The notes beneath the pieces were generated by a model. It made no database searches, had not been told where the DNA came from, and worked only from the letters and a program-made list of their open reading frames with translations. The translations under genes and the position numbers were made by a program. 64,000 nucleotides of DNA from an uncultured Pseudomonadales bacterium (lineage in GTDB: Bacteria; Patescibacteriota; Microgenomatia; UBA1400; UBA1449), in contig CAYLQQ010000001.1 of the NCBI GenBank assembly GCA_964386355.1, forward strand, positions 12,256 through 76,255. Direction: 5' to 3'. How positions within the stretch are numbered: the stretch's first letter is position 1; each line of letters opens with the position of its first letter. Below are positions 17,663-58,207 of this stretch, in pieces.

Positions 17663-18361
17663 TTATCTTTTCACAACAAAGCAGTCTTCACATCTAGGTT
17701 CATATGATACTACAGATGATGGAGGAAGCAACTCAGGCTCATCAATTGTGGCTGCTTTACCATCAATAAGCCTTTGTGAATATTTATAGGCTTTTCTTCC
17801 ACACATTTGGCATGTAGCATACAAATTATATGTTTTGTTAGCTTTAAATGTTAATAAGTCGCTTAAAATAAATTCACCACCCTGACTCGTATATAATAAG
17901 CCCATTGCAATTAACCAACCTCCACGCTCAATAAATAGCTTAATTTCATACATTAAGTAGCTCTGTAAATTTGCCGGGGTAAATTGGATTTCATCTATAA
18001 AAATAACATCATTTTCGTGGAACATTTTTTCAATATCACTTTTATTTGAAAATGAAGTTATATGAAGAGACAAACCAGATCTTGATAGGATTTTATCCTT
18101 GGGAACATCTGCTCTATCTAATAAAGGCTGACTAAAGTAAGCTTTTCGATTGCCAATTTTTTGTTTTTTTAAGTTTTCGTTTAAATAAATTGCAACAATA
18201 GATTTACCACTCCTCTCAGGACCATATATAAAAATAATGCCCCCCTCGTCTATAGGCGATCCTGCAATCATATCAGTAATTTCGTCAGCAGTATTTTTTG
18301 CATTTTTTAATACAAAAGCATATATACCGTTAACTTTAGATTTAGGTTCAATTTGTTTCAT
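17663..18361 (-). CDS. tdk: thymidine kinase
   Basis: P-loop IYGPERSGKS, VIFIDEIQF in place of DEAQFF, and a C-terminal zinc ribbon CQMCG...CEDC. Confidence 0.8.
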   Translation of the reverse strand: MKQIEPKSKVNGIYAFVLKNAKNTADEITDMIAGSPIDEGGIIFIYGPERSGKSIVAIYLNENLKKQKIGNRKAYFSQPLLDRADVPKDKILSRSGLSLHITSFSNKSDIEKMFHENDVIFIDEIQFTPANLQSYLMYEIKLFIERGGWLIAMGLLYTSQGGEFILSDLLTFKANKTYNLYATCQMCGRKAYKYSQRLIDGKAATIDEPELLPPSSVVSYEPRCEDCFVVKR

Positions 18362-40654: not shown

Positions 40655-41260
40655 CTAGAGGGAATTTATTACAAAATATTCGACTGCTTGCCTATCAAAG
40701 CCAAAGCTGATAAATCGCTCTTTGATCTGCTCATCTCCCACACCTTCGCCTTTCCATTTAGGAGTTAGCTGGTGAATTGTTTCTCTAACCTCATAGGGAA
40801 ACACAATCCAGTCACTTGTTTGTATGCCATAGTAATCCGGTTTTATCTTTGAGTGAGGTTTATAAAAAACCGTAGCAGTTTTGATGTGCTCAATTCCTTT
40901 AGCATGCAAGTAGTCTTTTACAAACAACAGTGACTCTCCTGTATCAGCCACGTCATCAAACAGAAGTATATTTTCGCCATTGATATCAACAGGTAACTGC
41001 TGATAGATGATAGGTTTTTCGCAGCGCTCATTCACTCCGCAGTAAAACTTGACCCCGATGCTGGCAACTTCTTTTACACCCAAAAGGTCAACGAGGGAAC
41101 GTGTCATCGGCCAACCACCCTTGGCAAGCGTAACAATACGATCTATCTTGATTCCGTCTGCCTGTATCTGTTTTGCAACCTCAAATATAAACTGCTGGAG
41201 CTGGTCCCAGGATGGAGTCAGATAGCTAATACCGTTGTGAGATGAGTTGGTCGGGTGCAT
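40655..41260 (-). CDS. purine phosphoribosyltransferase, xanthine-guanine PRT (Gpt)-like
   Basis: PRPP-binding motif ILLFDDVADTGESL and the Gpt-like C-terminal WIVFPYE. Confidence 0.75.
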   Translation of the reverse strand: MHPTNSSHNGISYLTPSWDQLQQFIFEVAKQIQADGIKIDRIVTLAKGGWPMTRSLVDLLGVKEVASIGVKFYCGVNERCEKPIIYQQLPVDINGENILLFDDVADTGESLLFVKDYLHAKGIEHIKTATVFYKPHSKIKPDYYGIQTSDWIVFPYEVRETIHQLTPKWKGEGVGDEQIKERFISFGFDRQAVEYFVINSL

Positions 41261-44409: not shown

Positions 44410-45720
44410 TCAATTTCTCTTTTTTCTTTTATGTTCAGCAACTCCTGTTGCTCTTTTAAACATTAATTGTAATCTATTAGCTAAACTTTCTTCCAGATCA
44501 TCTACATCGTCTCCAACAAAATCCGTATTAGCAAAACGCTGTACGACACAAGAGCCTCTTTTCTTAACGTCATAGTCAAGCTTATCTAGAGCAGCTTTGA
44601 TTACCCAATATCTATGTGGTGCCGACCCGAGCACGGCCATGTCTTTCATAAACATATATGCAGCATTTGCGGGATCTGCAGCCAAAAGATTATCCACAAG
44701 TAGAATATGTCTGCGTGCAATTGGATGCTCTGATTCAAACCCTCCGTTCGCAAAAGGGTTTATTTCCATTGATAAAATTTCTTCTGGTAACAACGGTGTC
44801 ATGAGAAGTTGGTGTCTTGTTCGAAATACAACTCCCTTAACAGGAGTATCCTCTTCAATAGGCCATATAACCCTTTTATTTGAACCATTCTTTTTGGGCT
44901 TTGATTTTTCTAGAGCAGGATCATATTCGGGCATTCTAAATAAACAGACAGCTTCACCGAAGTTTATATGAACCTCAAATAATGAAGTTGGATCTCTAAA
45001 AAGAGTTGAAAATAATAGTAGTTGTCTAGTTTTTGTCTCTTCTTTGCTTTCGCCTTCTTTAGGTTTATGAAGAGCGGTTATTTGACCTGTTAAAGGATCT
45101 TTGACTGTGACTATTACATCTCCACCTAAAGATAATACATATGGCGATCCAGGTGTATCAGCTACAATACCTGCTCTTTCATCTTGTAAGTTCCTAATAA
45201 GAGCTCGAATGTCCGTGCATCCCTGCATATCCCTAGCTTTAGAATATGCTACTACACCGGCGGCGGCATCAAAGTGATTCAATTCTGCACCCGGTTTACA
45301 TTTAGATCCTGCCACAAATACTCCCGGCGCTAAATAACCCATACCTGCAATTGTGTTTACCACCTTACTTGATTCTCTTTCTGAACGAGCTAGGACTGCT
45401 GCAACCTGGTTTCCTTGTAGTCTTTCACGAACCTGCTCCATCTCAGTACGTACCTTTGGGTCTTTCATTATATGTTCGAGAAAACCAGGTATACCTCGCG
45501 TAACTTCTCTTTTGAATTCATCTAAATCAAAATGTACTATGGGATGCATATCAATCATCTTTATATATGGATCAACTTTTTCTCTAATATACCTAGCTAG
45601 ATCTTTTTCAGGAGATGAACATTGTGCACCGTCAACTTGGGTATGACCGTTTCTATTCTCCCCGAACGCTACAGGTACTGAGTTGCATTGTAATAATGAT
45701 CGTAAGTCAACAGGTAACAT
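44410..45720 (-). CDS. hypothetical protein (436 aa)
   Basis: Long ORF with a basic C-terminal tail (HKRKKRN). No family recognised. Confidence 0.5.
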   Translation of the reverse strand: MLPVDLRSLLQCNSVPVAFGENRNGHTQVDGAQCSSPEKDLARYIREKVDPYIKMIDMHPIVHFDLDEFKREVTRGIPGFLEHIMKDPKVRTEMEQVRERLQGNQVAAVLARSERESSKVVNTIAGMGYLAPGVFVAGSKCKPGAELNHFDAAAGVVAYSKARDMQGCTDIRALIRNLQDERAGIVADTPGSPYVLSLGGDVIVTVKDPLTGQITALHKPKEGESKEETKTRQLLLFSTLFRDPTSLFEVHINFGEAVCLFRMPEYDPALEKSKPKKNGSNKRVIWPIEEDTPVKGVVFRTRHQLLMTPLLPEEILSMEINPFANGGFESEHPIARRHILLVDNLLAADPANAAYMFMKDMAVLGSAPHRYWVIKAALDKLDYDVKKRGSCVVQRFANTDFVGDDVDDLEESLANRLQLMFKRATGVAEHKRKKRN

Positions 45721-45869: not shown

Positions 45870-46625
45870 TTATTTCTGTTTCATGCCTTGAGCTGTATAT
45901 TGTTCCAACGCCTCTACCGCAGGCTTTCCGCCACTAAATATCACTTTGTACAAGAGGAAAGGATCAGGCTTAATCCTATCTACTAGTGTTACCGGCGTCA
46001 TTGAACCATCTGGTAGCAGGTGAGTGGTACATATCTCCATACTTCCCCTTGTTGATGTAAGTAATTCCCAACCGATATCAGTTATAGGTAATGATCCAGC
46101 AACCTCGAGCACATAACCAGTGTGATCCACTAGACGTTTTGCATCAGCATGGGGAAAGGCATGTAGCTGAGTTTCAATAATTGTTACATCTGTTGTTGGT
46201 CTAAAACCGTTGCGACCAAAATAGGTAGTGGCAGCACAGTCATATACGGTAGTGTCATTATGTGTCAATAATGCCAGTTGTTCTAAAGCTCTTTCTGGTG
46301 TTCCGGGTTTTTCCAATGTTACCCATCGGCCATTAATTAAAACTACCCTCACTGTATCTGCAGTCTGAAATACGCATTCTTCTCCTCCCGCCTCTTTTGA
46401 AGTCAGAATTTGTTTTGCGGCAGTAGCTTTTGCATCTGACATCCATGCTACATACTGAGCTGGGTCGGCAGGCCTGCGAGCTAGTACGTCTTTTCTGATC
46501 CCATATTCATCAAACACGCCTTCGGGTGAAACTGGGGCAAGATGCAAACCAACAGCCCTTGCTTTCCATCCTGCAATAGCAAGCCGATGATGGGCAGATG
46601 TTACTGGAGAGAATTCTTTAAACAT
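45870..46625 (-). CDS. hypothetical protein (251 aa)
   Basis: A/R/G/T-rich ORF with no recognisable motif. Confidence 0.5.
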   Translation of the reverse strand: MFKEFSPVTSAHHRLAIAGWKARAVGLHLAPVSPEGVFDEYGIRKDVLARRPADPAQYVAWMSDAKATAAKQILTSKEAGGEECVFQTADTVRVVLINGRWVTLEKPGTPERALEQLALLTHNDTTVYDCAATTYFGRNGFRPTTDVTIIETQLHAFPHADAKRLVDHTGYVLEVAGSLPITDIGWELLTSTRGSMEICTTHLLPDGSMTPVTLVDRIKPDPFLLYKVIFSGGKPAVEALEQYTAQGMKQK

Positions 46626-46728: not shown

Positions 46729-47541
46729 TCAAGTATAAAATTGTTGAGGTATAGCTTCCAAACCGGGACGCACACCTGTATAGCTTGGCATACGAGCAAG
46801 TTCGTTGCGGATAATGTGACAAAACTGAGCTGCTACCACAGGCAACTGACCATCTACATTAAGAAGTACAAACTTTGACAAAGTAACTCCTCTCATATCT
46901 TCATCAATTTTCCTTAAGCGATCTCTCACTTGTTCAGGGGAAGATCCTGGACGATTACGTAAACGGTTCTCTAAAACTTCCTTTGATTCTGGCATAACAA
47001 AAATTGGAACTATTGCTGTATTTCTTAGTATTTGGTTACCTTGCCATAGTTCCAGTACACGCTGTGCTCCATCATGTTCAACCCGCAACACAGAAATTCC
47101 ATTATGTCTTTCTACTCGCTCTAATTCAGTAAAACTTGTACCCTTAAAATCATCAACTCCATAAGGTATATGTTCAACAAATTTGTGATTTACTATCATT
47201 TGTCCAAATGTTTCCTTATTAACAAAATGGTAATGTACCCCGTCAATCTCGCCCGGCCTTGTTTTACGCGTTGTATGAGTGACAATCCGTTGCAACAATC
47301 CTCGTGACTCAAGTTGTTCGAGAATCCCATCTTTTCCGGCTCCTGATAATCCCATGAGAATAACCATTAATGAATGGGCGAAAGTTAATCGCTCTGGAGT
47401 ATTAAGTTCACTACTTGAAACTCTATATACATACGGTATCTCAAAAGATAAACCCACTCCTTGGTCTTCAACTTGCATTTCATACCAGGTTTGAAACTGA
47501 GTAATAACGTTTGGTACTCTTGGTACTCTTTCTTGAGACAT
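46729..47541 (-). CDS. guanylate kinase-like P-loop kinase with a 60-aa N-terminal extension
   Basis: ILMGLSGAGKDG (P-loop), then RIVTHTTRKTRPGEIDGVHYHFV...HIPYGVDDFKGTS, parallels Gmk (SGPSGAGK...TTR.PRPGE.DG.DY.FV...Y.GT). Confidence 0.6.
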   Translation of the reverse strand: MSQERVPRVPNVITQFQTWYEMQVEDQGVGLSFEIPYVYRVSSSELNTPERLTFAHSLMVILMGLSGAGKDGILEQLESRGLLQRIVTHTTRKTRPGEIDGVHYHFVNKETFGQMIVNHKFVEHIPYGVDDFKGTSFTELERVERHNGISVLRVEHDGAQRVLELWQGNQILRNTAIVPIFVMPESKEVLENRLRNRPGSSPEQVRDRLRKIDEDMRGVTLSKFVLLNVDGQLPVVAAQFCHIIRNELARMPSYTGVRPGLEAIPQQFYT

Positions 47542-47595: not shown

Positions 47596-49032
47596 TTAGA
47601 GTAAGCCTTTTTGTTTGATCTGTTTTATTATCTGTTGATGAACTTCTTCGATAGTCTTTGAAGCATCTACGACAATCCAACGTCCGTGGTCGTTACGCTT
47701 TGCTAGTTTAAGGTAACCGGCACGTACTTTGTCGTGAAAATCTTTTTGTTCCAGATCCAAACGATTCATCACTTCGGAAGCACTCCTTCGAGCTAGACCT
47801 AGCTCTGACTTAATATCCAAAAGCATCGTCAGATCAGGATACAGGTTTTGTGTGGAAATATTATTCAGCTGTTCAATCAGGTCTTCTCCAAAGCCCCGTA
47901 CTATTCCTTGATAGACTACGGATGAGTCTCTTGTGCGGTCACACAAAACCACCTTACCTGTTTCTAGAGCTGGAATGATCAACTCCTGATAAATCTGTGC
48001 CCGAGCTGCCTGGAATAACAAAACTTCAGTCCCAAATGCCATACCAGTATTTTTTGTATGTAAGACAATTTCTCTGATTTGCTCAGAAATTGCCGTACCC
48101 CCTGGTTCTCTGGTGATAAGTACTTCTTTGCCTGTTTTGATTAACAAATCTGCCAATAGTTTTATCTGGACTGTTTTACCAGCCCCTTCTCCACCTTCAA
48201 ACGATATAAGAAGGCCTTTTTTATTAATTTTCTTTTGAGCAACATGATGTAAACCATTGATAGATGAAAAGTGGTGTTTTTCGCATTTGGGGAAATAGTT
48301 ATATGACACTTTACCAACCAGCATGAGCGCGTCAGAGTTAAACGATGCCGGCTTATCATCCAGATTAAGCTGGGTAAAGATAGCCGGATTCTGACATTGA
48401 GGTTCGCTACAGCGGGCAGAAAGCACCAGCATCAGGTCAGCGTGGCCAAATAAGGCTCTGTTGTTTTCCCATTGAATCCGTTTATATGAAAAATCAAGTC
48501 CGGCAATAACTAAAGTTATTCTTTTTTCATTAATAATTTTTATTAAAGATCGAAACTCGGAAGCATCAACCTTAGCTCTATCACAAAAGTGCCATTCATC
48601 AATTAACACAACTGTCCCTGGCTTGACATCGTGTAAATAAGTTTCTAGATCACTGAGGTCTTTATACACTTGAGCCGGGTATTCCTTACCGGAGCCCCAT
48701 GATTTTATGACAGCCTTATCACTCGTACGCTGCATATCCTTCTGATGTGTAAAGGCTTGTATACGTAATTTTTTTACTGAGGAAAGTAGTAGTAACAGGG
48801 CAGTTTTTCCCGATCCCATAGGCCCACAAATACCGATAATTCCCCCGTTTGGATGAGCCTCTATATAGTCGATTATCCGTTTAAGTGCCGGGAAGTGGTG
48901 TTGGTTATAGCCTTTCTGTTTACTTTCAGATGGGTCAGAATACCAGTAGGCTTTGCTTTTTCCAACTGTAAGTGTGGAAACAGGGTACGGAATAAGATCT
49001 TTGTTCTGGTCATTTACAGCTATTTCAGACAT
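47596..49032 (-). CDS. bifunctional fusion: N-terminal thymidine kinase-like domain plus C-terminal thymidylate kinase domain
   Basis: TK-like: GICGPMGSGKT, VLIDEWHFC, AGLDFSYKR, and a zinc ribbon CSEPQC...PKCEKHH. TMPK: LISFEGGEGAGKT, ITREPGGT, LLFQAARAQIY...VLCDRTRDSSVVYQG. Confidence 0.75.
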   Translation of the reverse strand: MSEIAVNDQNKDLIPYPVSTLTVGKSKAYWYSDPSESKQKGYNQHHFPALKRIIDYIEAHPNGGIIGICGPMGSGKTALLLLLSSVKKLRIQAFTHQKDMQRTSDKAVIKSWGSGKEYPAQVYKDLSDLETYLHDVKPGTVVLIDEWHFCDRAKVDASEFRSLIKIINEKRITLVIAGLDFSYKRIQWENNRALFGHADLMLVLSARCSEPQCQNPAIFTQLNLDDKPASFNSDALMLVGKVSYNYFPKCEKHHFSSINGLHHVAQKKINKKGLLISFEGGEGAGKTVQIKLLADLLIKTGKEVLITREPGGTAISEQIREIVLHTKNTGMAFGTEVLLFQAARAQIYQELIIPALETGKVVLCDRTRDSSVVYQGIVRGFGEDLIEQLNNISTQNLYPDLTMLLDIKSELGLARRSASEVMNRLDLEQKDFHDKVRAGYLKLAKRNDHGRWIVVDASKTIEEVHQQIIKQIKQKGLL

Positions 49033-49056: not shown

Positions 49057-49989
49057 TTACATTTGTAAAACGGCTGATTGCCGGTGATGTGCTGCATTGG
49101 GGACAAGTACACGAGCCTGTGAATTCTCTGGTGTGCGTAATTCGTTGACCCAGTCCATAAACTGTTTCCATGTAGGGTCTCCGCGCCATCCACTGGCTGC
49201 AAAATCAATCCACAACTGTCCTGTAATATCAAATACCCAGTCAATATTAGGCACACCCCTGAGGTGACGCTGGATATTTGTGTCAATATCAATCCCTCCA
49301 TTTAAATAAGCTCTGTGAATCTCTTCAGAATGTAAGATTGCCCCACAGGCTTTGCGTTTATAAGCAATGAGGGTATCAACAAGGCGGCTAAACGGCATCT
49401 GTTTTTGTTGACTGAGGAAATCGTCCCATGTTAGTTGGAGCAAGCTATGTACCTTGGTGGTAATCCGAGGTAGGCCATCAACGGGACTGTATGCACCCGC
49501 AGACGTAGCCATGAGCACTTCAATGGCATTGCTGGTAAGCTGCGTCTCAACCATGAGAGCAGTCTCAGCCTCATCCCTTGGTTTAAACAAGACTGCCGAG
49601 CCATTATCCTGATATGCAACTACAACCATATCTTTTGCAATTTCCGGAACTACCAAGCCTTGTGCCATCTGCCCAAGCATTTGAGGTTGCTCAAGCTGGC
49701 TATGTAGACTGCTGGCTACTTTTGAAGCTGCCAACATTTGTGTAAACCAGTTGGGTAGCCACTCTGTATTGCGTGCTTCCACCAGCATCACCCGCTCGTT
49801 AGGATGCGTATGCATCCCAAGTGACTCTCTAAGCGCTACTTGAATAGCGTACTCATCATAACAGGAAGGCAAAGGTTGAGAGGGAATGCCAAACTGCTCA
49901 AAGTAATCCTTAAAAACGGGCTGAACGCCCCCTTCTCCATTTCGCATGGACATGTGGGGGAACGCAAACTCAATATCAGGCTTCGGCAT
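49057..49989 (-). CDS. hypothetical protein (310 aa), first gene of the island array
   Basis: ORF with no recognisable motif. A 109-nt intergenic region lies upstream. Confidence 0.45.
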   Translation of the reverse strand: MPKPDIEFAFPHMSMRNGEGGVQPVFKDYFEQFGIPSQPLPSCYDEYAIQVALRESLGMHTHPNERVMLVEARNTEWLPNWFTQMLAASKVASSLHSQLEQPQMLGQMAQGLVVPEIAKDMVVVAYQDNGSAVLFKPRDEAETALMVETQLTSNAIEVLMATSAGAYSPVDGLPRITTKVHSLLQLTWDDFLSQQKQMPFSRLVDTLIAYKRKACGAILHSEEIHRAYLNGGIDIDTNIQRHLRGVPNIDWVFDITGQLWIDFAASGWRGDPTWKQFMDWVNELRTPENSQARVLVPNAAHHRQSAVLQM

Positions 49990-50098: not shown

Positions 50099-51190
50099 TT
50101 ATTCCTGAATTGGAGAATTTACGTATTTCTCAAAAAATATCAAATCCCGCTCCACTACCTGATTCCAGGAGCCTGCCATATTGTGGTCAGCATAGGGATA
50201 GGTGTAGTACTTGTAATTTTTTTTAAGTTCTTTGAGTTTTTTGACAAACTCATTTGACCACTTGAGTGGTACAGCATCATCCGCTCCACCTTGATGAATC
50301 TGAAGAGGTGCCTGTACAAGGTCAAAGTAGTCACTGATCGAGTACTGCCTGGCGTCATAATCGTTTTCAAGCCTGGCAACCTCAGCCCGCAACGCCTTCC
50401 CCTCATCTTCAAACTCATCTGTAAAAAAGAGAATGGCAAATGGAAATGGCTTGGTAACGGGTGCCCATAAAGTAGTTGGGATATTTTGCCGGGAAATCTC
50501 CAACACGGAAAGGGCAATCTGCCCCCCATTACTGTGCGCCCAGATTCCGATTTTTTCAGGGTCAGCTTGGTCAAGTGTCTTAATAGATGCTAAGAGGTTG
50601 AGCACTTGGACGGGGTTATTAAACCGTTCCCACCACACATCGTTTTCTGGCATATCTGATTTTCCATAACCTAGAAAGTCAGGTGCTAAGGTGATATAGC
50701 CATTCTGGGCAAATACCCCAGCCGCCCGTTTGGTGCCAATACCGGATTCATACATATCTCTATCTACAAAGCCCCGAAGCATCACAAGTACGGGATACTT
50801 CCCGTTTAGGGGTATCTGAAGCAATGCCGATTCACTCGCTTCCTGTGCAGAATCTGAAGCTGTTGGCGGCAATGGAATATTTATCTGTCCTGAGACCCGT
50901 TTCCCATCTGATACAAAGAAAAACAGGTGTGATTTGTACCGGTCTTCAGCTTCTGTTTCAGTGTTGAGTTGTTTGTCAATCTCAATCTGGCTACCTCTAT
51001 ATTCACGTTTGCTCAGATTATCAAATGTAAATTTCTCTAGAGGTTTCTCGGTTGGTACAGGGACAAAATTTGGCTTAACTTGGACTATATTTGAGCGATA
51101 TTGTGTGAAGTAATAAATTCCTGTATACGCTCCAATTCCCAAAAGCAACACATTCAACACGATAAGAAAAACAATTAATGCTTTATTCAT
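50099..51190 (-). CDS. membrane-anchored alpha/beta-hydrolase (dienelactone hydrolase/S9-like)
   Basis: N-terminal TM helix and the nucleophile elbow GIWAHSNGG. Native-like K-rich composition. Confidence 0.6.
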   Translation of the reverse strand: MNKALIVFLIVLNVLLLGIGAYTGIYYFTQYRSNIVQVKPNFVPVPTEKPLEKFTFDNLSKREYRGSQIEIDKQLNTETEAEDRYKSHLFFFVSDGKRVSGQINIPLPPTASDSAQEASESALLQIPLNGKYPVLVMLRGFVDRDMYESGIGTKRAAGVFAQNGYITLAPDFLGYGKSDMPENDVWWERFNNPVQVLNLLASIKTLDQADPEKIGIWAHSNGGQIALSVLEISRQNIPTTLWAPVTKPFPFAILFFTDEFEDEGKALRAEVARLENDYDARQYSISDYFDLVQAPLQIHQGGADDAVPLKWSNEFVKKLKELKKNYKYYTYPYADHNMAGSWNQVVERDLIFFEKYVNSPIQE

Positions 51191-51275
51191 ATTATAGGAT
51201 TTACAATTATACCGTACATATGTATAATTACCAGCTCTTAAACATTTACCTGTATCTTAGATTGACCAAAATTGT

Positions 51276-52922
51276 ATGGCGTTATTAGAAAGAATTATTC
51301 ATCAAGCATATGAAGGTGGACAACACCCAATTATAACTGAAGATCCTGACAACACCAATGGAGCTTTTTTTGTATTGCAAATACCTACTCCTGAATTATT
51401 GGGATTTGAACGCAGGAACTCGATGGATGCTATTATAAAAGAGGCTCAACAGCTTGATCCTCTAACTGTGATTACACTAAATGAATCAACTGAGCTAGTA
51501 GTCGGAACCACCTTCAACGCATCTCCTCACTCTCCATTTTTTGTTCCCAAAGAATCGTTTAATCAAGTATGGCAAATAGAGCCACAACAACAAGAACAAG
51601 ATCTACCAGATTATGTTCCTTTACATCATGTTATTTGGGTCACTATACGACAACTCCAACCTGACGGTTCCTATGTGTATACCCAAGTGGATAGCTATGA
51701 CTTGGTTGGTGCTAGAGCTGAAACACTGAATACCCTGATTCCTGGTGTAAATAATGATCAAATACAGACAGCCTTACCAACAGCCTATGAAGATATTGCA
51801 AAACGTGCACATAGGTCGGCAGCTGCTCTCTCAACTTTATATAACGAGCTGGTACGTCCACAGTTAAATATTCAACTTGCTTCTAAACTCTTCCAACTAG
51901 GGTGCGCTACTACTGAATTAGAACTTTTCCCCAAAAGACAGCATGCTTTTTTAGCAGAAGGGATCGGACAAAGTGAACATATCGAAATAGGGACTCCTTT
52001 CAATGTACAAGGGTTCGGCCGCGGACCCCAGTCTGTAAAAAACAAACATGTACAACTTGCTCTGTATGTATCTATCGAGGAAATTGAGCAGATAATTGAA
52101 ACAGTCAATACGGCTAACCCTTTCGTTAGTAAACTAGAAATATTACAAGCTGTATTAAATACATTACAAACTGATGAGACTGATCCTATATATCCAATAC
52201 GAGGTTCACTTACGCTCAGGCCTATAGAGCAGCTCCGTGATGATCAAATTTTAAAGCATGTCGATCCCTATGGATTTATCGCTACCGAAGTGCTAGATCC
52301 GGTCGTCAAATCGTGGCTAAATGCTCACTTTGCACAACTTGATCCAAACATCCAGGTTAGGAAGTTTGAAGATGTCAGTAGTCGAGATCAGCTGACCCAA
52401 AGGTTTGCAACTGGGTGGGAGATTGAGATACCAAAAACTATGTTAGCTCAAGGATTGGCTTTAACTGGGGAATTTGAGAGCCAGATGTATAGTTTTTGGA
52501 AAGAAATAATTAAACAATATGAACAATGGTACCGAACAGGTTCTGATGAAGAGTTGAAAACATACATTGATACGTTACCGATAGAAGATCCAAGAGATAA
52601 AATATATCTCCTCAGACTTATAAAAATAGTCCAACCGACTGAAGAACAGCTTCAAGAATGGAATATGATGCGCAAGCAAGAATTGATCCTAACATATGAG
52701 GGACAGGATACTAACCCAGCTACTCAAGTTGCAATTTCTCTTAAGCAACAAGTATTGCCAGAATATAATCAGGGATACAATCTGCCAAATGTACCTGGTC
52801 TAGGATTCTCCGTAAAGATCAATGGAGTTGATACGGTACTCCTCAGAATACGACCGATTCTTGATCTCAATGGTCTAGCTGAAAATATCTCAAGTTTGGT
52901 ACTTGCAAGAAAAACATATTAA
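51276..52922 (+). CDS. hypothetical protein (548 aa, Q/E/L-rich)
   Basis: Long ORF with no family recognised. Confidence 0.5.
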   Translation: MALLERIIHQAYEGGQHPIITEDPDNTNGAFFVLQIPTPELLGFERRNSMDAIIKEAQQLDPLTVITLNESTELVVGTTFNASPHSPFFVPKESFNQVWQIEPQQQEQDLPDYVPLHHVIWVTIRQLQPDGSYVYTQVDSYDLVGARAETLNTLIPGVNNDQIQTALPTAYEDIAKRAHRSAAALSTLYNELVRPQLNIQLASKLFQLGCATTELELFPKRQHAFLAEGIGQSEHIEIGTPFNVQGFGRGPQSVKNKHVQLALYVSIEEIEQIIETVNTANPFVSKLEILQAVLNTLQTDETDPIYPIRGSLTLRPIEQLRDDQILKHVDPYGFIATEVLDPVVKSWLNAHFAQLDPNIQVRKFEDVSSRDQLTQRFATGWEIEIPKTMLAQGLALTGEFESQMYSFWKEIIKQYEQWYRTGSDEELKTYIDTLPIEDPRDKIYLLRLIKIVQPTEEQLQEWNMMRKQELILTYEGQDTNPATQVAISLKQQVLPEYNQGYNLPNVPGLGFSVKINGVDTVLLRIRPILDLNGLAENISSLVLARKTY

Positions 52923-52932
52923 AATTCCTCTA

Positions 52933-53451
52933 TCACCTAATATTGTATTCTAAAAGTATTGTTCCCTCTTCTCCCAGCTTTTGACTATTTACTAAATCAA
53001 GTCTGAATTCGTGTAAACTTTGATTAAACAGTTTCAGACCTGCCCCAAAGACCACCGGTTCTACAGTCAATAACATCCTATTTACCAGCTTTGCCTTCAT
53101 AAAAAGGGTATAAATAGTTGATCCCCCACATATTGCCACCTGCTCATACCCCCTACCCTCCAGCTCTGCCAAAAGCTGTTTGGGGTCTTTGTTGGTAAAC
53201 TCCAGATTAGGAAACTGAAACTGTCTAGCCGAAACCTCCGGTTCCATACTAAAGACAATATTCTGCCTATTAGGCAGCGGTTTTCCAATGGTTTGGAAGG
53301 TATTCCAACCCATCACCATAACACCAATCTCTTTGGTAGTTTTTGCAAACCACAAGCGATCTGCTTTGCTCGTCCAAGCAGTCGAAACTTGAGAAGTCTC
53401 TCTGGCAATAAAGCCATCAGCGGTAAGAGCGGCGATAAGAATTACTTCCAT
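52933..53451 (-). CDS. folA: dihydrofolate reductase
   Basis: About 170 aa. The N-terminal ILIAALTADGFIA, WFAKTT...VVMGWNTFQTIGKPLPNRQNIVFS and GGSTIY fit the DHFR motifs. Confidence 0.75.
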   Translation of the reverse strand: MEVILIAALTADGFIARETSQVSTAWTSKADRLWFAKTTKEIGVMVMGWNTFQTIGKPLPNRQNIVFSMEPEVSARQFQFPNLEFTNKDPKQLLAELEGRGYEQVAICGGSTIYTLFMKAKLVNRMLLTVEPVVFGAGLKLFNQSLHEFRLDLVNSQKLGEEGTILLEYNIR

Positions 53452-53501
53452 AAGTTCTTTTGTAGATTTACACGCTTAACATAACATCTTACCATGAGTA
53501 C

Positions 53502-54911
53502 ATGCAACATAAAATCGTGGTGTTAGTTATTGCATGTATATGCTTTTTCTTGTATGTCATTTCAAAAGACACAACATATTTTCTCAGGGATGATTTTGAT
53601 TTTTTACTGTATGCCAAATATCCAATTTCAAACACGCTGCTTATTCCCCATAATCAGCATATCGTTATTTTACCCCGGCTCCTTTTTGCAATTGAATCAA
53701 TTCTGTTTGGCATGAATCACAATCTCTATTTAATAGTATCAATACTATTACACGGCTTAGTTCTGTATGGTATGTACAGAGTTATACAAATAATTACTAA
53801 GAGTAAAAAATTTTCATTGCTCTTTACTTTAATATGTGTAGTGCCTGGTTCATCATACAAAGTAATTGCATTAGCAAATAGCCAAATGTTCCTTCTAGCT
53901 AGCCTTTTGGGATTACTCAGCATCTTAGTTTTGCTTCTATTTAAAAAGACAAACAATAGTCTATATCCCATTATTAGCTGTATTGCTGGTCTTTTGGCTA
54001 GCTGGTGCCATGGGATTGGTCTTGCAGTTTTATTGGCATCTGTCTGTGTGTGTGTATTAAACAAAAGAATATCTTGGAAATTAAAACTTACAACTCTTTT
54101 GATTGGAATTGCAGGGGTAGTGACATATATTCTATTTGTAGGATCATCCCTCAGATCTGATTTGAATAGCCAAGCAATACAAACTAAAGTCCCAATGATA
54201 CAACACTTTATTCAAAAGGGAATTATTGACGGAAGCATGTGGGGCATAATTATGCCAAGATTTACCTACAACAATATATCCCCCAACCTAATCCCTCCAT
54301 TACTGATTGCGTTAATGTTAGTCAGTATACTGGTATTTTTTCAACTACGAAATCAGCTTAAAAATATGTGGAATTCTATTGAAATTTTTATTATTTTTAT
54401 CTTATCTCACTTTTTTATTTTAAGTATAGGAAGGGCAAACAATCTTATGTATTCAGTAAGCCCCCAATTTACGTATTTCCCAAAAGTGCTTATCACTGTA
54501 CTACTTGCTACTATTTTATTTCAGTATTGGATGATAAATTCTACAAGAATTACTAAGCTTATTTTGGTAAGTTTTGTATTGTGTGTCTTCTTTGTCCAAT
54601 TTATGTTTTATACCGATAGACTCAATGCATTTGAACCACGTATCGTCTTTACAAAAACATATATACAAGCAATCTTACACACAACTACAACACAAAAAGA
54701 GGTTATCAATTTCCCATTACCTGATTGTATAAATTCTAATATGCATTTCCAAGATATTGCATATGTATATAAAGTGAAAAATAGTCCTCACTATATAGAT
54801 CAAAAACACATTCCTGATATTAATAGCTATATAAATAGCATCCAAGATCCTATTGTAAAAGAAACGTACCATACAGCCCTACATCATCTGGATATGTTCA
54901 GTAGTAATTAA
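53502..54911 (+). CDS. polytopic integral membrane protein (possible GT-C-type glycosyltransferase)
   Basis: 469 aa with at least 10 hydrophobic helices. No catalytic motif confirmed. Confidence 0.45.
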   Translation: MQHKIVVLVIACICFFLYVISKDTTYFLRDDFDFLLYAKYPISNTLLIPHNQHIVILPRLLFAIESILFGMNHNLYLIVSILLHGLVLYGMYRVIQIITKSKKFSLLFTLICVVPGSSYKVIALANSQMFLLASLLGLLSILVLLLFKKTNNSLYPIISCIAGLLASWCHGIGLAVLLASVCVCVLNKRISWKLKLTTLLIGIAGVVTYILFVGSSLRSDLNSQAIQTKVPMIQHFIQKGIIDGSMWGIIMPRFTYNNISPNLIPPLLIALMLVSILVFFQLRNQLKNMWNSIEIFIIFILSHFFILSIGRANNLMYSVSPQFTYFPKVLITVLLATILFQYWMINSTRITKLILVSFVLCVFFVQFMFYTDRLNAFEPRIVFTKTYIQAILHTTTTQKEVINFPLPDCINSNMHFQDIAYVYKVKNSPHYIDQKHIPDINSYINSIQDPIVKETYHTALHHLDMFSSN

Positions 54912-55016
54912 ATTACATCCTGTCACTTGTAACCTGTCAATTCACTTGTTATATTAGGTCAGCTTTACAAACAATTTAATATGGGTTTTATGATGCGCTC
55001 CTAAAATCCCAATCTT

Positions 55017-55967
55017 ATGCCCCGACCAAGACATCCTGAATACCAGTACCTCGATCTCTTGCAAGATATCATGAAAAACGGAGTTGAGAAAGTCAGCCAT
55101 TCCACAGGCATGGGACTTAGGTCGGTTTTTGGTAGACAGATGCGTTATGACCTATCAAAAGGCTTCCCTCTGTTAACGACAAAAAAAGTATTTATGCGCG
55201 GAATTATCCATGAACTGATTTGGTTTTTATCGGGAAGCCCAAATATCAAGTATCTGGTTGATAATAACGTTCACATTTGGGACGACTGGGCATATAAAAA
55301 CTACCAAACTGCTATGAAAAAGGGTGAAGTTAAGAAAATGGATATCGATACCTTTGCCCAGCACATCAAAAATGATGATAAGTTTGCAAAAAAATGGGGA
55401 GATATTGGGCCTGTCTATGGCGTTCAGTGGCGAGACTGGCCGGTTGGTGATGGCCGCCACATTGACCAGATAGCCTGGATGCTTGAAAAAATGAAAAAGG
55501 AACCCCAGAAAAAACACTACATTATTTCTGCATGGAACTGCGGCTACATCTATGAAATGGCGCCATCAAGAGATGAATCCATGGCAATAGCCCCCTGTCA
55601 CACGTTTTTCCATGTCAATATTGCTGGAGATAAACTATCACTCCAACTTTACCAGAGAAGCGCTGATATGTTTTTGGGTGTACCTTTCAATATCGCCAGT
55701 TATGCCCTATTAACCTTAATGCTTGCCCAGGTAACTGGCTACAAGCCGGGTGAATTTATCCATACATTTGGCGATGCCCATGTATACCATAACCACTTTA
55801 AACAGGTCAAAGAGCAGTTAAAAAGGAAGCCACGCAAATGGCCGACAATGAAGATCAACCCGGCAGTCAAATCAATAGATGATTTTAAATTCGAAGATTT
55901 TAGTGTAGAAAATTACAATCCATATCCTCCAATCAAAGGTGAAATTACTGTGGTGGGAGGGTTTTAG
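55017..55967 (+). CDS. thyA: thymidylate synthase (ThyA)
   Basis: Active-site region [11 protein letters not shown] with the catalytic Cys, plus [22 protein letters not shown]. Confidence 0.9.
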
Positions 55968-58207
55968 ATACTACAGGCAGCAAAGCCACAAGCCTGGCAA
56001 GACTTACAACCCTCGTGGACCTGTAAAGTTCCCCCGCATTGCGGACAGGCATCGGCTTTGAGCTTAGAACTTCTAGCTTTTAATTTCCCCACAATAGTGT
56101 TTGATTTATTACTTTTCACTTTGGAGTTACTGCCTGTTCCTACATTGAGCACCTGCGTGGATCTTGAGGCATCACGGTAAATTGTAATCCCCTTGAGTTT
56201 GAGCTTCCAGGCAAGCATGAATGCCCTGCCTACATCTGCCACAGTTGAATCATGGCGCATGTTGATGGTTTTAGAAACCGCATTATCGGTATATTTTTGC
56301 CAGGCAGCTTGCATCTTGATATGATCTTCGATGGACAAGTCATGGGCAGTTACAAAAACTCTGCGGATTGAGACAGGGATTTGCTCAAGGTGTTGTATTG
56401 AACCTGCTTCCATAATTGACTGGATTTCGCCGTTATCAGCCATATGAGCTTTTTGAAGGGCTTTAAGAAGGTCCTGATTCATGTCGGGCAGTTTGTAACC
56501 TCCCATGACCTGCTTGTAAAATGCCAGTGCAAAGTGAGGTTCAATACCATAGGAGCATCCAGCAGCCATAGCAATAGAACCGGTTGGGGCAATGGTCGTA
56601 ATGGTTGCATTACGCATAGGCTTGAGGCCTTGTTTTTCCCACAGTGATCCCTTCCAATTAGGAAACTCACCTTTCTCTACTGCTAGCCTTTGACTTTCTT
56701 TACGGCCTTCATCTTCAATAAATGATGCTAGTTTTTCGGCCAGTTGTACGGCTTCCTTACTATTGTAAGCAACATCCAATCGTACAAGCATATCTGCCCA
56801 ACCCATAACACCCAACCCAATTTTCCGATTCGCTTTTACAACCCGATCAACCTTTTGTAGAGGATAACTGCAGATAGAAACCACGTTATCCAAGAAACGG
56901 ACCGAAAGCTGGACGGTCTCGCGGAGCTTATCCCAGTCTACGGAATAATTTATTACTTGTTGGCTGTTAGTTGTTGGTTGTTTGCCATTTCCCTTAATTC
57001 TTAATTCCTGAGTCTTAACTCGAGTGATGTGCTTAGCTAGATTAATACTCCCCAAATTACAGGCTTCGTATGGCAGCAGCGGCTGCTCTCCACAGAGATT
57101 GACTGACTCTATAGGCCCAACCTGCGGTGTGGGGTTATACTTGTTAATCTCATCTAAAAAGATCATGCCAGGATCGCCGTTTTTCCATGCCATCGTGGTT
57201 GCCAGGTCAAATATCGAGCGGGCATCAACTGAGTTTATTATCTCGCCCGTACGGGGGTTGATCATCGGCCATGCTTCATCTTTTTCAACCGCTTTCATGA
57301 ATTTACTCGTTAATCCAAGTGAGAAATTAATATGGTTAAGTGAGTTTTCATCTTCTTTACAGGTTAAAAACTCGAAAATATCCGGGTGAGTGACAGGTAA
57401 AACAACCATATTCCCAGATCGCCTACCACCTGCTTGCAAGAGCATGTCAGAGGCTTTGTTTAAAATGTGCATAATGGAAACCGGTCCGCATGCTCTGCCG
57501 GTGGTGGTTGCTACCAAATCACCTTTTGGCCGGATACGACCCATAGAAAACCCTACTCCGCCGCCGTTTTTTTTCAGAATTGATGACTCTTTAACCACCT
57601 GAAATACTCCATCGACGCTATCTGGCATAGGTAAGACAAAGCAGTTTGCCAACTGATTATTGATTGTGCCTGCATTAGCCAATGTCCGCCCGCCTGGTAA
57701 AAACCTAAACTCAGTCATGAGCTGATAAAACTTATCTTCCCATACTTTTTTATCCCTTTTCTCAGTTGCTGCTAGTGCTTTGGCGACTCTCTGGAACATT
57801 TCCCTAGGTGTTTCAATAATCTTGCCATTCTCGTCTTTTTGAAGGTACTTGTTGCCAATAACAATCAATTGGTTGTAGGATAAACCAAGATCATCCTTGA
57901 CTCCCAAACCCTTGCTGGCTCTTGCCTCTTGCCTCTGACGCTCCCTGGCAATGATGTAGGCTTTGGCAATATGGAACAGGTTTTCCTCTAAAAGTATGCG
58001 CTCTACCGTATCGCCGATATCATCCGTACCAATTACTGCTTCTTTATGTAAACGATTGTTAAGATCAGCATCCGCAAGATCGGCTATTCTGATCGCAATT
58101 TGCTCATCTAGCGCATTTATATTTTCCTGGGCACGCAGAATTGACCGGTAAATTTTATCCTTTTGGTAGGCCTGTGTTGACTTGGATCGTTTAATGACTT
58201 GCCACAT
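55964..58207 (-). CDS. nrdJ: class II (adenosylcobalamin-dependent) ribonucleotide reductase with an N-terminal ATP-cone and a C-terminal zinc ribbon
   Basis: Active-site VNLCGEQPL...ACNLGSINL. The C-terminal CPQCGG...CKSCQACG zinc ribbon is typical of monomeric NrdJ. Its stop overlaps the thyA stop. Confidence 0.85.

What the first reader, a model, noticed from the sequence alone, without database searches (positions are those of the whole stretch)
47596..49032. Single polypeptide fusing a thymidine-kinase-like domain to thymidylate kinase
Residues about 60-270 carry the TK hallmarks: a P-loop GICGPMGSGKT, VLIDEWHFC in place of DEAQFF, an AGLDF motif, and a C-terminal zinc ribbon. Residues about 275-478 form a textbook dTMP kinase with FEGGEGAGKT, REPGGT and DRTRDSSVVYQG. 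A 60-aa leader with no recognisable motif precedes both. A fused enzyme would channel thymidine (or an analogue) straight to the diphosphate. The organism also encodes a separate canonical tdk at 17663-18361, so the TK-like domain here may prefer a different, perhaps modified, nucleoside. The substitution DEWHFC for DEAQFF near the nucleoside-binding site would fit that.
Basis: partly seen in the sequence, partly recalled or inferred. Interest (0 to 1): 0.6.

Follow-up and report, generated by a model that had tools for sequence, protein, structure and literature searches.

The report
Bacterial thymidine kinase–thymidylate kinase fusion gene
One gene of an uncultured Patescibacteria (CPR) bacterium really does join a thymidine-kinase domain to a thymidylate-kinase domain, so a single protein probably carries out two consecutive steps of dTTP synthesis; the layout is rare in bacteria, but a shrimp virus is already known to have it.

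Summary
Window 47596-49032 (-) is one uninterrupted 478-aa ORF, and its DNA is identical in two independent assemblies.

- **N-terminal half.** Residues 61-256 are a genuine TK1-type (type II) thymidine kinase, not a generic P-loop NTPase. Pfam TK scores above its threshold, sequence alignment to solved bacterial TKs runs end to end, and all 50 best PDB matches to the AlphaFold model are TK1 enzymes.
- **C-terminal half.** Residues 272-478 are a textbook bacterial dTMP kinase (TIGR00041 178 bits against a cut-off of 83; TM-score up to 0.95).
- **Leader.** The 60-aa "motif-less" leader is a conserved, structured element of a little-known long TK1 subfamily.
- **Rarity.** A search of 5.8 billion proteins returned only five clusters with both domains. 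They form two clades whose Tmk halves are about 60% identical but whose TK halves are only about 27% identical. Related metagenomic loci carry tdk and tmk as adjacent separate genes.
- **Precedent.** The same TK1-then-TMK order is already known in white spot syndrome virus (wsv395).
The second tdk in the window is no more canonical than the fused domain. The modified-nucleoside idea has no support: the Thr beside thymine C5 is kept.

Verdict: a new bacterial variant of a known kind, of modest interest.

The parts
47596..49032 (-). Complete TK1-Tmk fusion gene (478 aa plus stop codon)
   Evidence: It is a single ORF. Pfam finds TK plus Thymidylate_kin. The DNA is identical in assemblies L001 and L002. 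The full-length AlphaFold model has mean pLDDT 91.3.
48853..49032 (-). N-terminal leader, residues 1-60, carrying the conserved motif GYNQHHFPA (41-49)
   Evidence: The leader is conserved in P0002, P0111, P0124-P0157 and others. Block-averaged pLDDT is about 80 for residues 11-30 and 95-97 for 31-60, with predicted helices 16-22 and 46-59 and a strand at 28-31. Solved TK1 structures have no counterpart: Foldseek alignments cover about 200 of the 270 residues.
48265..48852 (-). TK1-type thymidine kinase core, residues 61-256. It holds the P-loop (70-77), D99/R102, D145-E146, LDFSYKRIQW (179-188), the zinc ligands C208/C213/C250/H253 and the lasso residues T220, L222 and Y246.
   Evidence: Pfam PF00265 matches residues 65-254. 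phmmer hits PDB TKs 2j9r, 2ja1 and 1xx6 at E 1e-10 to 5e-9, end to end. All top 50 Foldseek PDB hits are TK1 enzymes, TMt 0.73-0.85.
48220..48264 (-). Inter-domain linker, residues 257-271
   Evidence: pLDDT is below 50 for residues 257-263. The sequence differs from P0002 but the length is the same. It contains no in-frame start codon.
47599..48219 (-). Bacterial-type dTMP kinase (Tmk) domain, residues 272-478
   Evidence: TIGR00041 scores 178.3 bits against a cut-off of 83.25. PF02223 scores E 1e-47. phmmer hits 3hjn at 2.5e-41, about 40% identity, end to end. Foldseek TMt is 0.92-0.95 against 4edh, 4s35 and 3hjn.
17663..18361 (-). Second, stand-alone TK1-family paralog (232 aa); context, not part of the fusion
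   Evidence: Pfam TK scores 45.5 bits. PDB 2ja1 scores 1.4e-16. It is 28% identical to the fused TK domain. NF003296 scores 72.8 bits, below the 183 cut-off.
46729..47541 (-). Guanylate-kinase-like gene immediately downstream (54-nt gap); a possible operon partner
   Evidence: Pfam Guanylate_kin scores 89.7 bits. TIGR03263 scores 113.9 bits, below its 160 cut-off.
45870..46625 (-). Weak Maf-like nucleotide pyrophosphatase gene, the last gene before a terminator-like hairpin at 45751-45729
   Evidence: Pfam Maf scores 38.6 bits.
50099..58207 (.). Conserved dTTP-synthesis neighbourhood upstream: S9/alpha-beta hydrolase 50099-51190 (-), DHFR 52933-53451 (-), ThyA 55017-55967 (+), class I/II ribonucleotide reductase 55964-58207 (-)
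   Evidence: Pfam assignments are. The same RNR-ThyA-(DHFR)-hydrolase-TK order occurs in the Beckwithbacteria loci L003-L005 and in L006.

Best explanation
The gene encodes a genuine bifunctional enzyme of an uncultured Patescibacteria (CPR, Beckwithbacteria-like) bacterium.

- **First step.** An N-terminal TK1-type thymidine kinase phosphorylates thymidine, and probably deoxyuridine, to the monophosphate.
- **Second step.** A short flexible linker joins it to a bacterial-type thymidylate kinase, which converts dTMP to dTDP. The dTMP comes either from the TK domain or from the ThyA encoded nearby.
- **What the fusion does.** It fixes the two consecutive salvage activities at 1:1 stoichiometry. 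It also places the source of dTDP, which PMC1636055 lists with dTTP as a feedback inhibitor of type II TKs, next to the kinase it inhibits.
- **How it arose.** The fusion probably arose by joining neighbouring genes, since relatives still carry tdk and tmk as adjacent separate ORFs.

**Shown:** the single ORF, the family membership and fold of both domains, retention of the catalytic and zinc-binding residues, the rarity of the fusion, the gene context and the unfused relatives.

**Inferred:** both activities, the substrates, and any channelling or feedback effect.
For: - **Single ORF.** It is reproduced in independent assemblies and in an ortholog.
- **TK half, family and fold.** Pfam TK scores 49.9 bits against a threshold of 20.6. 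Alignment to solved bacterial TKs runs end to end. The N-domain AlphaFold model has pLDDT 90.6 and pTM 0.89, and all 50 best PDB matches are TK1 enzymes.
- **TK half, residues kept.** P-loop K76/T77, D99 and R102 (hTK D58/R60), D145-E146 (the Mg-binding Asp and the catalytic base), F149, T220 (hTK T163), the lasso Tyr Y246 and four zinc ligands are present. Their roles are taken from PMC4433323 and PMC1636055.
- **Tmk half.** TIGR00041 scores 178 bits against a cut-off of 83. It is about 40% identical end to end to solved Tmks, with TMt 0.92-0.95. No other Tmk is found in the window.
- **Context.** RNR, ThyA and DHFR lie just upstream, and this neighbourhood is conserved in relatives.
- **Unfused state.** L058 and L082 carry tdk directly upstream of tmk.
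- **Precedent.** The white spot syndrome virus TK-TMK chimera has experimentally shown TK activity (PMC2855118, PMC3496565).
Against: - No activity was measured.
- The TK domain fails the NCBIfam equivalog cut-off (72 bits against 183).
- The lasso-anchoring Arg (LmTK R153, VVTK R150) is Leu222 here and in the closest relatives.
- The D..R loop carries a one-residue insertion.
- The genome keeps a second TK1 paralog, which suggests the two may not be redundant.
- In the white spot syndrome virus chimera only the TK activity was detected, not the TMK activity (PMC2855118), so fusion does not guarantee bifunctionality.
- The relative orientation of the two domains is not reliably predicted (linker pLDDT below 50, pTM 0.71).
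Confidence: 0.7

Rival explanations
1. The protein is fused as described, but the long-type TK1 domain has shifted substrate preference. It might prefer deoxyuridine, another deoxynucleoside or a modified nucleoside, while the stand-alone paralog at 17663-18361 serves as the thymidine kinase.
For: - A small CPR genome keeps two TK1 paralogs that are only 28% identical.
- The lasso Arg is replaced by Leu in this clade.
- The D..R loop carries an insertion.
- An extra conserved leader is present.
Against: - According to PMC1636055 and PMC4433323, TK1 enzymes read thymine through backbone atoms.
- The Thr beside C5 (T220), the lasso Tyr, and the residues at the pocket aromatic positions (F149, Y184, W188) are kept or conservatively replaced.
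- The product still feeds a textbook dTMP kinase.
- The stand-alone paralog is at least as aberrant: GPERSGKS in the P-loop, and the Asp and Arg of LDxDFR are lost.
Confidence: 0.2
2. Only one half is catalytically competent, as reported for the white spot syndrome virus chimera. The other half would then act as a nucleotide-binding regulatory or scaffolding domain, for example a dTTP sensor.
For: In white spot syndrome virus TK-TMK, TK activity was detected but TMK activity was not (PMC2855118, PMC3496565). TK1 enzymes bind dTTP tightly as a feedback inhibitor (PMC1636055).
Against: Catalytic residues of both halves are intact. The Tmk half passes an equivalog-level model by a wide margin, and it is the only Tmk seen in the window.
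Confidence: 0.07
3. The fusion is an artefact: two adjacent genes, tdk and tmk, were merged by a sequencing or assembly frameshift.
For: Related loci L058 and L082 do carry tdk and tmk as adjacent separate genes.
Against: - The DNA is identical in two independent assemblies, and the same protein sequence is also recorded from an NCBI source (contig of 151,636 bp).
- P0002, at 59% identity, keeps the same reading frame and the same linker length.
- Three further fused proteins exist (P0003-P0005).
- The junction contains neither a stop codon nor a start codon.
Confidence: 0.02

Closest known systems
White spot syndrome virus TK-TMK chimeric protein (wsv395; Tsai et al. 2000 and Tzeng et al. 2002, as cited in PMC2855118 and PMC3496565)
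   Same: It has the same domain order in one polypeptide: a TK1-type thymidine kinase at the N-terminus and a thymidylate kinase at the C-terminus. It is the best BFVD structural match to the full-length model (A0A2I6SBM8; 426 aligned columns, E 1e-26).
   Different: - It is only 23% identical, and the two-domain superposition has rmsd 15 Å.
- The papers describe the viral halves as cellular-type (eukaryote-like). Here the Tmk is bacterial, about 40% identical to solved bacterial Tmks and 58-76% identical to stand-alone metagenomic Tmks.
- The TK here is a long CPR-type domain with a 60-aa leader. The two fusions therefore most likely arose independently.
- No TMK activity was detected for the viral protein.
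Bacterial TK1-type thymidine kinases with solved structures (B. anthracis 2J9R, B. cereus 2JA1, C. acetobutylicum 1XX6, U. urealyticum 2B8T, T. maritima 2ORW)
   Same: It shares the alpha/beta P-loop domain plus the zinc-ribbon/lasso domain, the DE catalytic motif and the lasso Tyr. The Cys3-His zinc site matches that of the Ureaplasma enzyme (PMC1636055).
   Different: - Identity is 20-26%.
- A conserved 60-aa leader is added.
- The first zinc knuckle is C-x4-C instead of C-x2-C.
- An insertion follows DEWHF.
- The loop reads D-x-x-R instead of D-x-R.
- The lasso Arg is Leu.
- The domain is fused to Tmk.
Bacterial dTMP kinase (Tmk; TIGR00041, e.g. T. maritima 3HJN, P. aeruginosa 4EDH, S. aureus 4DWJ)
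   Same: Homology runs end to end. It has the same P-loop FEGxxGxGK[ST], the REPGGT motif, the DR motif and a basic LID region, and the fold superposes at TMt 0.92-0.95.
   Different: The motif reads DRT rather than DRY, DRF or DRH, and the domain is attached to a TK domain through its N-terminus.
Herpes simplex virus type 1 thymidine kinase
   Same: A single protein provides both TK and TMPK activities (PMC3496565).
   Different: It is a single dNK-family (type 1 TK) domain with one active site, not a fusion of two kinase domains.
Other TK1 fusions found here (TK-NUDIX P0154, P0149, P0169; TK-dNK P0162; tandem TK1 P0133 and, among solved structures, the T. brucei enzyme)
   Same: In each, a TK1 domain is fused to another nucleotide-metabolism domain.
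   Different: The partner domain differs. None of the 150 closest TK1 representatives listed carries a Tmk. Only 10 of the multi-domain proteins were checked with Pfam; the rest were judged by length.

Membership tests
TK1-type (type II) thymidine kinase, Pfam PF00265 | Profile match above the curated threshold | tested here: met
   PF00265 scores 49.9 bits against a gathering score of 20.6, covering residues 65-254 and profile positions 3-176 of 176.
TK1-type (type II) thymidine kinase, NCBIfam equivalog NF003296 | Score above the equivalog cut-off (183 bits) | tested here: not met
   It scores 72.1 bits. The window's other TK scores 72.8 bits and P0111 scores 65.1 bits. The whole CPR group is too divergent for this model.
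TK1-type (type II) thymidine kinase | Two-domain fold: an alpha/beta P-loop domain plus a zinc-ribbon/lasso domain | tested here: met
   The N-domain AlphaFold model has pLDDT 90.6 and pTM 0.89. All top 50 Foldseek PDB hits are TK1 enzymes, with TMt 0.73-0.85.
TK1-type (type II) thymidine kinase | P-loop GxxxxGK[ST] and a DE motif (Mg-binding Asp plus the catalytic-base Glu) | tested here: met
   GPMGSGKT lies at residues 70-77 and D145-E146 are present. E146 and K76 are invariant across 56 relatives. Roles are from PMC4433323 and PMC1636055.
TK1-type (type II) thymidine kinase | Structural zinc site with four ligands (Cys4, or Cys3-His as in Ureaplasma) | tested here: met
   The ligands are C208, C213, C250 and H253. 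The first pair is spaced C-x4-C instead of C-x2-C, a spacing shared by many relatives.
TK1-type (type II) thymidine kinase | Lasso held by a conserved Tyr and a conserved Arg (Lys in T. maritima) | tested here: not met
   The Tyr is present (Y246, nearly invariant). The Arg position is Leu222 (TQLN) in P0001, P0002, P0111 and P0124-P0126, whereas most other relatives have TQR. The rule is from PMC4433323 and PMC1636055.
TK1-type (type II) thymidine kinase | Flexible-loop Asp and Arg (hTK D58/R60) that contact the 3'-OH and the phosphate | tested here: inconclusive
   D99 and R102 are conserved, but they are spaced D-x-x-R rather than D-x-R throughout the long subfamily. Whether the geometry is equivalent cannot be judged without model coordinates.
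TK1-type (type II) thymidine kinase | ATP-dependent phosphorylation of dT/dU, a homotetramer, and dTTP feedback inhibition | not testable with these tools
   This needs enzyme assays and measurement of the oligomeric state.
dTMP kinase (Tmk), TIGR00041 / PF02223 | Equivalog-level profile score | tested here: met
   TIGR00041 scores 178.3 bits against a cut-off of 83.25. PF02223 scores 162.4 bits and covers profile positions 1-185 of 185.
dTMP kinase (Tmk), TIGR00041 / PF02223 | Tmk fold and the motifs P-loop, REPGGT, DR and YQG, plus a basic LID | tested here: met
   Foldseek TMt is 0.92-0.95 against ligand-bound Tmk structures. The motifs are aligned. The third residue of the DR motif is Thr.
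dTMP kinase (Tmk) | dTMP-to-dTDP activity | not testable with these tools
   This needs an assay or complementation of a tmk(ts) strain.
White spot syndrome virus-type TK-TMK chimera | TK1 domain followed by a TMK domain in one polypeptide | tested here: met
   The full-length model's best BFVD hit is the white spot syndrome virus protein, aligned over both domains.
White spot syndrome virus-type TK-TMK chimera | Common descent of the fusion (orthology) | tested here: not met
   It is 23% identical to the viral protein. The nearest Tmk relatives are stand-alone metagenomic tmk genes at 58-76% identity, and the nearest TK relatives are stand-alone CPR proteins. The fusion therefore formed within this bacterial lineage.

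The most novel reading that the evidence does not exclude
The long TK1 subfamily may be a Patescibacteria-specific nucleoside kinase whose substrate range or regulation differs from classical thymidine kinases. Its marks are the conserved leader G-x-N-x-[NH]-[QH]-x-x-A, the D-x-x-R loop, the PW motif and, in this clade, the loss of the lasso Arg. The two TK1 paralogs of this genome would then divide labour. The repeated fusion of TK1 domains to Tmk (at least two bacterial clades plus white spot syndrome virus) would reflect selection for direct hand-over or for self-limiting dTDP feedback in organisms that depend on salvage.
Probability: 0.15. Interest if true: 0.55.

Novelty: new variant of a known kind. 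Interest (0 to 1): 0.3.

Why it matters
CPR/Patescibacteria have tiny genomes and depend heavily on nucleotide salvage. A natural single-chain enzyme for the route dT to dTMP to dTDP would show how such cells economise on and co-regulate dTTP supply.

It would also give enzymologists a bacterial counterpart to the white spot syndrome virus chimera, in which TMK activity was never detected. That counterpart could be used to test whether fusing consecutive kinases brings channelling or built-in product feedback.

The practical consequences are modest. Public annotation calls these proteins only "dTMP kinase" and so misses the TK half. The long TK1 subfamily with its leader has not been characterised.

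Tried and rejected
- **Species-representative genomes.** Two scans, one with the single protein and one with an alignment of long TK1 domains, found no relatives. The organism had to be placed from named homologs instead: TopA is 66-70% identical to Candidatus Beckwithbacteria and Patescibacteria proteins, and a stand-alone relative of the TK domain, 43% identical, belongs to the same 90%-identity cluster as the Beckwithbacteria protein PIP53153.1.
- **Viral collections.** No fused relative was found in the phage collection by tblastn (313 records, none covering 80% or more of the query). None was found in IMG/VR either (11 loci, each matching a single domain).
- **First multiple alignment.** A2 put the Tmk P-loops onto the TK P-loop. 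It was rebuilt with trimmed Tmk sequences as A3 before structure prediction.
- **Upstream unknown ORF.** The ORF at 49057-49989 was tested as a possible conserved partner. It has no Pfam or NCBIfam hit and is not homologous to the ORF at the same position in L006.
- **Promoter scan.** Promoter-like sites are not enriched (7 found against 14.6 expected), so no promoter claim is made.
- **Literature.** Three full-text searches for a natural bacterial TK-Tmk fusion found nothing. The white spot syndrome virus precedent surfaced only through the structural search.
Full report
**Observation.** The window holds one uninterrupted 478-aa ORF at 47596..49032 on the minus strand, from ATG to TAA.
- The TK half has GICGPMGSGKT at residues 67-77, VLIDEWHFC at 142-150, AGLDF at 177-181, and the zinc ligands CSEPQC (208-213) and CEKHH (250-254).
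- The Tmk half has FEGGEGAGKT at 278-287, REPGGT at 308-313 and DRTRDSSVVYQG at 365-376.
- The gene DNA is identical in two independent Logan assemblies.
- A 59%-identical ortholog from a JGI metagenome, P0002 (481 aa), has the same architecture and the same linker length.
- No ATG, GTG or TTG codon lies in frame between residues 243 and 292. The Tmk half therefore cannot be started separately without either carrying the TK tail or losing its own P-loop.
- The fusion is therefore real.

**Domain identity.** Pfam finds TK (PF00265) at residues 65-254 with E 4e-13 and 49.9 bits against a threshold of 20.6. It finds Thymidylate_kin (PF02223) at residues 278-468 with E 1e-47.
- **Tmk half.** It passes the NCBIfam equivalog model TIGR00041 with 178 bits against a cut-off of 83. 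It aligns end to end at about 40% identity with solved bacterial Tmks. In the full-length AlphaFold model (pLDDT 91.3) it superposes on ligand-bound Tmk structures at TM-scores of 0.92-0.95.
- **TK half.** It aligns end to end, zinc ribbon included, with solved bacterial TK1-type kinases (2J9R 1e-10, 2JA1, 1XX6, 3E2I). A separate model of residues 1-270 has pLDDT 90.6 and pTM 0.89. Its 50 best PDB matches are all TK1-type thymidine kinases, with TM-scores of 0.73-0.85 normalised to the target.

**A distinct long TK1 subfamily.** An exhaustive HMMER search of 1.84 billion representative proteins with residues 1-270 gave 268 hits at E ≤ 1e-3 and 33 at E ≤ 1e-10.
- The closest hits are stand-alone proteins of 250-310 aa that also have the N-terminal extension.
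- Aligned, they share several features:
  - a leader motif, G-x-N-x-[NH]-[QH]-x-x-A, which is GYNQHHFPA at residues 41-49 here;
  - a D-x-x-R loop in place of the classical D-x-R;
  - the motif DE[WYLIF][QHN]F followed by a short insertion;
  - the motif LDFxF[RK]RxPW;
  - a C-x4-C ... C-x2-H zinc site.
- The leader is modelled with block-averaged pLDDT of about 80 for residues 11-30 and 95-97 for residues 31-60. It contains two helices and a strand. It is therefore not a motif-less leader but a conserved part of the domain.
- A stand-alone relative 43% identical to the TK domain (P0111) shares a 90%-identity cluster with P0113, which is Candidatus Beckwithbacteria protein PIP53153.1.

**Active-site audit.** The roles of residues are taken from PMC4433323 and PMC1636055.
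- **Kept:**
  - the P-loop K76/T77;
  - D99 and R102, which correspond to human TK1 D58 and R60;
  - D145, which binds Mg;
  - E146, the catalytic base, invariant in 56 relatives;
  - F149;
  - T220, which corresponds to human T163, the residue beside the thymine 5-methyl;
  - the lasso Tyr Y246;
  - the four zinc ligands, arranged Cys3-His as in the Ureaplasma enzyme.
- **Conservatively replaced:** the aromatic positions of the classical LDxDFRGxPF motif are Y184 and W188. That these side chains line the thymine pocket is recalled from the human TK1 structures and was not checked in a paper here.
- **One real departure:** the Arg that, together with the Tyr, pins the lasso is Leu222 (TQLN). 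This holds in this protein and in its five closest relatives, whereas most other family members keep TQR.
- The W and H of DEWHFC sit at positions that vary freely across the family. Thymine in TK1 enzymes is read by backbone atoms (PMC1636055).
- The sequence therefore gives no positive sign of a modified-nucleoside substrate.

**The second tdk.** The gene at 17663-18361 (minus strand, 232 aa) is a TK1-family paralog. It is only 28% identical to the fused domain.
- It is not more canonical than the fused domain. It scores 72.8 bits on the NCBIfam thymidine-kinase model against 72.1 for the fused domain, with a cut-off of 183. On Pfam it scores 45.5 bits against 49.9.
- It has GPERSGKS in place of GPM[FG]SGK[ST], and GLLYTSQGGEF in place of GLDxDFRxxPF.
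- Which paralog, if either, is the classical thymidine kinase cannot be decided from sequence.

**Organism and context.** The window is ordinary chromosomal DNA of a Patescibacteria (CPR) bacterium. It carries rpsB, tsf, frr, proS, topA, dprA, recR and a PBP gene, among others.
- Its TopA is 66-70% identical to Candidatus Beckwithbacteria and Patescibacteria proteins.
- The fusion gene lies in a nucleotide-supply neighbourhood:
  - upstream: RNR (55964-58207), ThyA (55017-55967), DHFR (52933-53451), an S9-type hydrolase (50099-51190) and an unknown ORF (49057-49989);
  - then the fusion gene itself;
  - downstream: a Gmk-like gene (46729-47541) and a weak Maf-like gene (45870-46625).
- A strong terminator-like hairpin follows at 45751-45729.
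- The order RNR-ThyA-(DHFR)-hydrolase-TK recurs in the Beckwithbacteria loci L003-L005, where the long TK is stand-alone. It also recurs in L006, where the TK is fused.

**Distribution and origin of the fusion.** A search of 5.8 billion proteins, which scored the 8,000 candidates sharing the most words with the query, returned only five clusters with both domains.
- Clade A is this protein and P0002. Clade B is P0003-P0005, which are 388-402 aa, have no leader and carry a classical IDE[VI]NFF motif.
- The Tmk halves of the two clades are 59-63% identical. The TK halves are only 25-29% identical, no closer than the fused domain is to the window's other paralog.
- A metagenome scan keyed on this Tmk lineage returned 80 loci with Tmk at 53-76% identity. 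In 78 of them tmk stands alone, with no TK within the flanks fetched (up to 3 kb on each side).
- The other two, L058 and L082, carry a short tdk directly upstream of tmk as separate ORFs, about 25-55 nt apart. That tdk is 37-41% identical to the clade B TK. This is the expected unfused precursor of clade B.
- Clade A joins a different type of TK1 to the same Tmk lineage. The likeliest history is therefore two independent fusions, though a swap of the TK domain after a single fusion is not excluded.
- None of the 150 closest TK1 representatives listed is a TK-Tmk protein (judged by length, with Pfam run on 10 of the multi-domain ones). Other partners do occur: NUDIX, dNK, DNA ligase and tandem TK.
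- No fused relative exists in the phage collection or in IMG/VR.

**Known precedent.** The best match to the full-length model among predicted viral structures is the white spot syndrome virus "dTMP kinase" A0A2I6SBM8 (384 aa). It aligns over 426 columns spanning both domains (E 1e-26, 23% identity).
- This is the published TK-TMK chimera wsv395, a TK1-type kinase followed by a cellular-type TMPK.
- The recombinant viral protein showed TK activity but no detectable TMK activity (PMC2855118, PMC3496565).
- The architecture is thus already known. The bacterial proteins share the layout but not the origin of the fusion, because their nearest relatives for each half are stand-alone bacterial genes.
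- Three full-text searches found no description of a natural bacterial TK-Tmk fusion. JGI annotates these proteins simply as "dTMP kinase".

**Most likely mechanism.** The best explanation is a bifunctional salvage enzyme, with confidence about 0.7.
- The TK1 domain converts dT, and probably dU, to the monophosphate.
- The Tmk domain converts dTMP to dTDP, whether that dTMP comes from the TK domain or from ThyA.
- The fusion enforces co-expression at 1:1.
- Type II TKs are feedback-inhibited by dTDP and dTTP (PMC1636055). Fusion therefore places the producer of an inhibitor next to the enzyme it inhibits.
- Both activities, the substrates and any channelling are inferences. Whether the two active sites face each other thus remains open.
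- How a tetramer-forming TK1 and a dimer-forming Tmk (established knowledge of the two families) assemble when fused is also unknown.

**Rival explanations.**
1. The TK domain has a shifted substrate preference and the two paralogs divide labour (about 0.2).
   - For: two paralogs in a small genome, the Leu at the lasso Arg position, the loop insertion and the leader.
   - Against: backbone recognition of thymine, the retained T220, Y246, F149, Y184 and W188, and the attached textbook dTMP kinase.
2. Only one half is active, as reported for white spot syndrome virus (about 0.07). The intact catalytic residues of both halves argue against it.
3. The fusion is a frameshift artefact (about 0.02). 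This is effectively excluded.

**Verdict.** This is a rare bacterial, independently evolved version of a TK1-TMK fusion already known from white spot syndrome virus. It is built from an uncharacterised long TK1 subfamily. It rates as a new variant of a known kind, with interest about 0.3.

Noticed in passing
window 46729-47541 (-) and 45870-46625 (-); hairpin at 45751-45729 (-): Two genes follow the fusion gene on the same strand. One is guanylate-kinase-like, with an N-terminal extension of about 55 aa, and scores below the NCBIfam equivalog cut-off. The other is a weak Maf-like nucleotide pyrophosphatase. A 10-bp-stem terminator-like hairpin comes after them. Together they may form a TK-Tmk/Gmk/Maf operon.
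   Followed up: partly
window 17057-17635 (-): An ORF resembling a nucleoside 2-deoxyribosyltransferase lies directly downstream of the second TK1 paralog. The match is weak (Pfam 27.6 bits, just below the gathering score of 28.8). A PfkB-family kinase lies at 19083-20051.
   Followed up: no
L006:960-2468 (the relative that carries the orthologous fusion P0002): Thymidylate synthase is a 502-aa protein there, with additional hits to MtrA and to the pterin-binding domain DUF4346. No DHFR gene is called between RNR and the hydrolase. This may be a different solution for folate handling.
   Followed up: no
window 49057-49989 (-), 51276-52922 (+), 53502-54911 (+), 44410-45720 (-): Four sizeable ORFs of 310-548 aa lie in or next to the dTTP-synthesis neighbourhood and have no Pfam or NCBIfam match. 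The one directly upstream of the fusion gene is not homologous to the ORF at the same position in L006.
   Followed up: partly
L058:2348-3621 and L082:2977-4222: In these metagenomic loci a short-type tdk sits immediately upstream of tmk as a separate ORF, with a gap of about 25-55 nt. This is the unfused state corresponding to the clade B fusions.
   Followed up: yes
window 36772-38013 (-) and 35925-36755 (-): A 413-aa protein has a GTP cyclohydrolase II domain only in its C-terminal part. Next to it is a weak OMP-decarboxylase/HUMPS-like ORF. A purine/uridine phosphorylase-family gene (39845-40618) and a phosphoribosyltransferase gene (40655-41260) lie nearby.
   Followed up: no
window 33086-35923 (+) and L006:8840-11473: A large ATPase of the HerA/DUF87 and TrwB/VirD4 coupling-protein type is present in both the window and the relative's contig. 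This suggests a conserved DNA-translocation or conjugation-like component in this lineage.
   Followed up: no
proteins P0007-P0062: Many of the closest Tmk homologs outside CPR are proteins of about 600-780 aa in which Tmk is fused to an MFS-type transporter domain. Those that carry names are from Actinobacteria (Actinomycetota, Euzebya, Micromonospora and Verrucosispora). This is another recurrent Tmk fusion.
   Followed up: no
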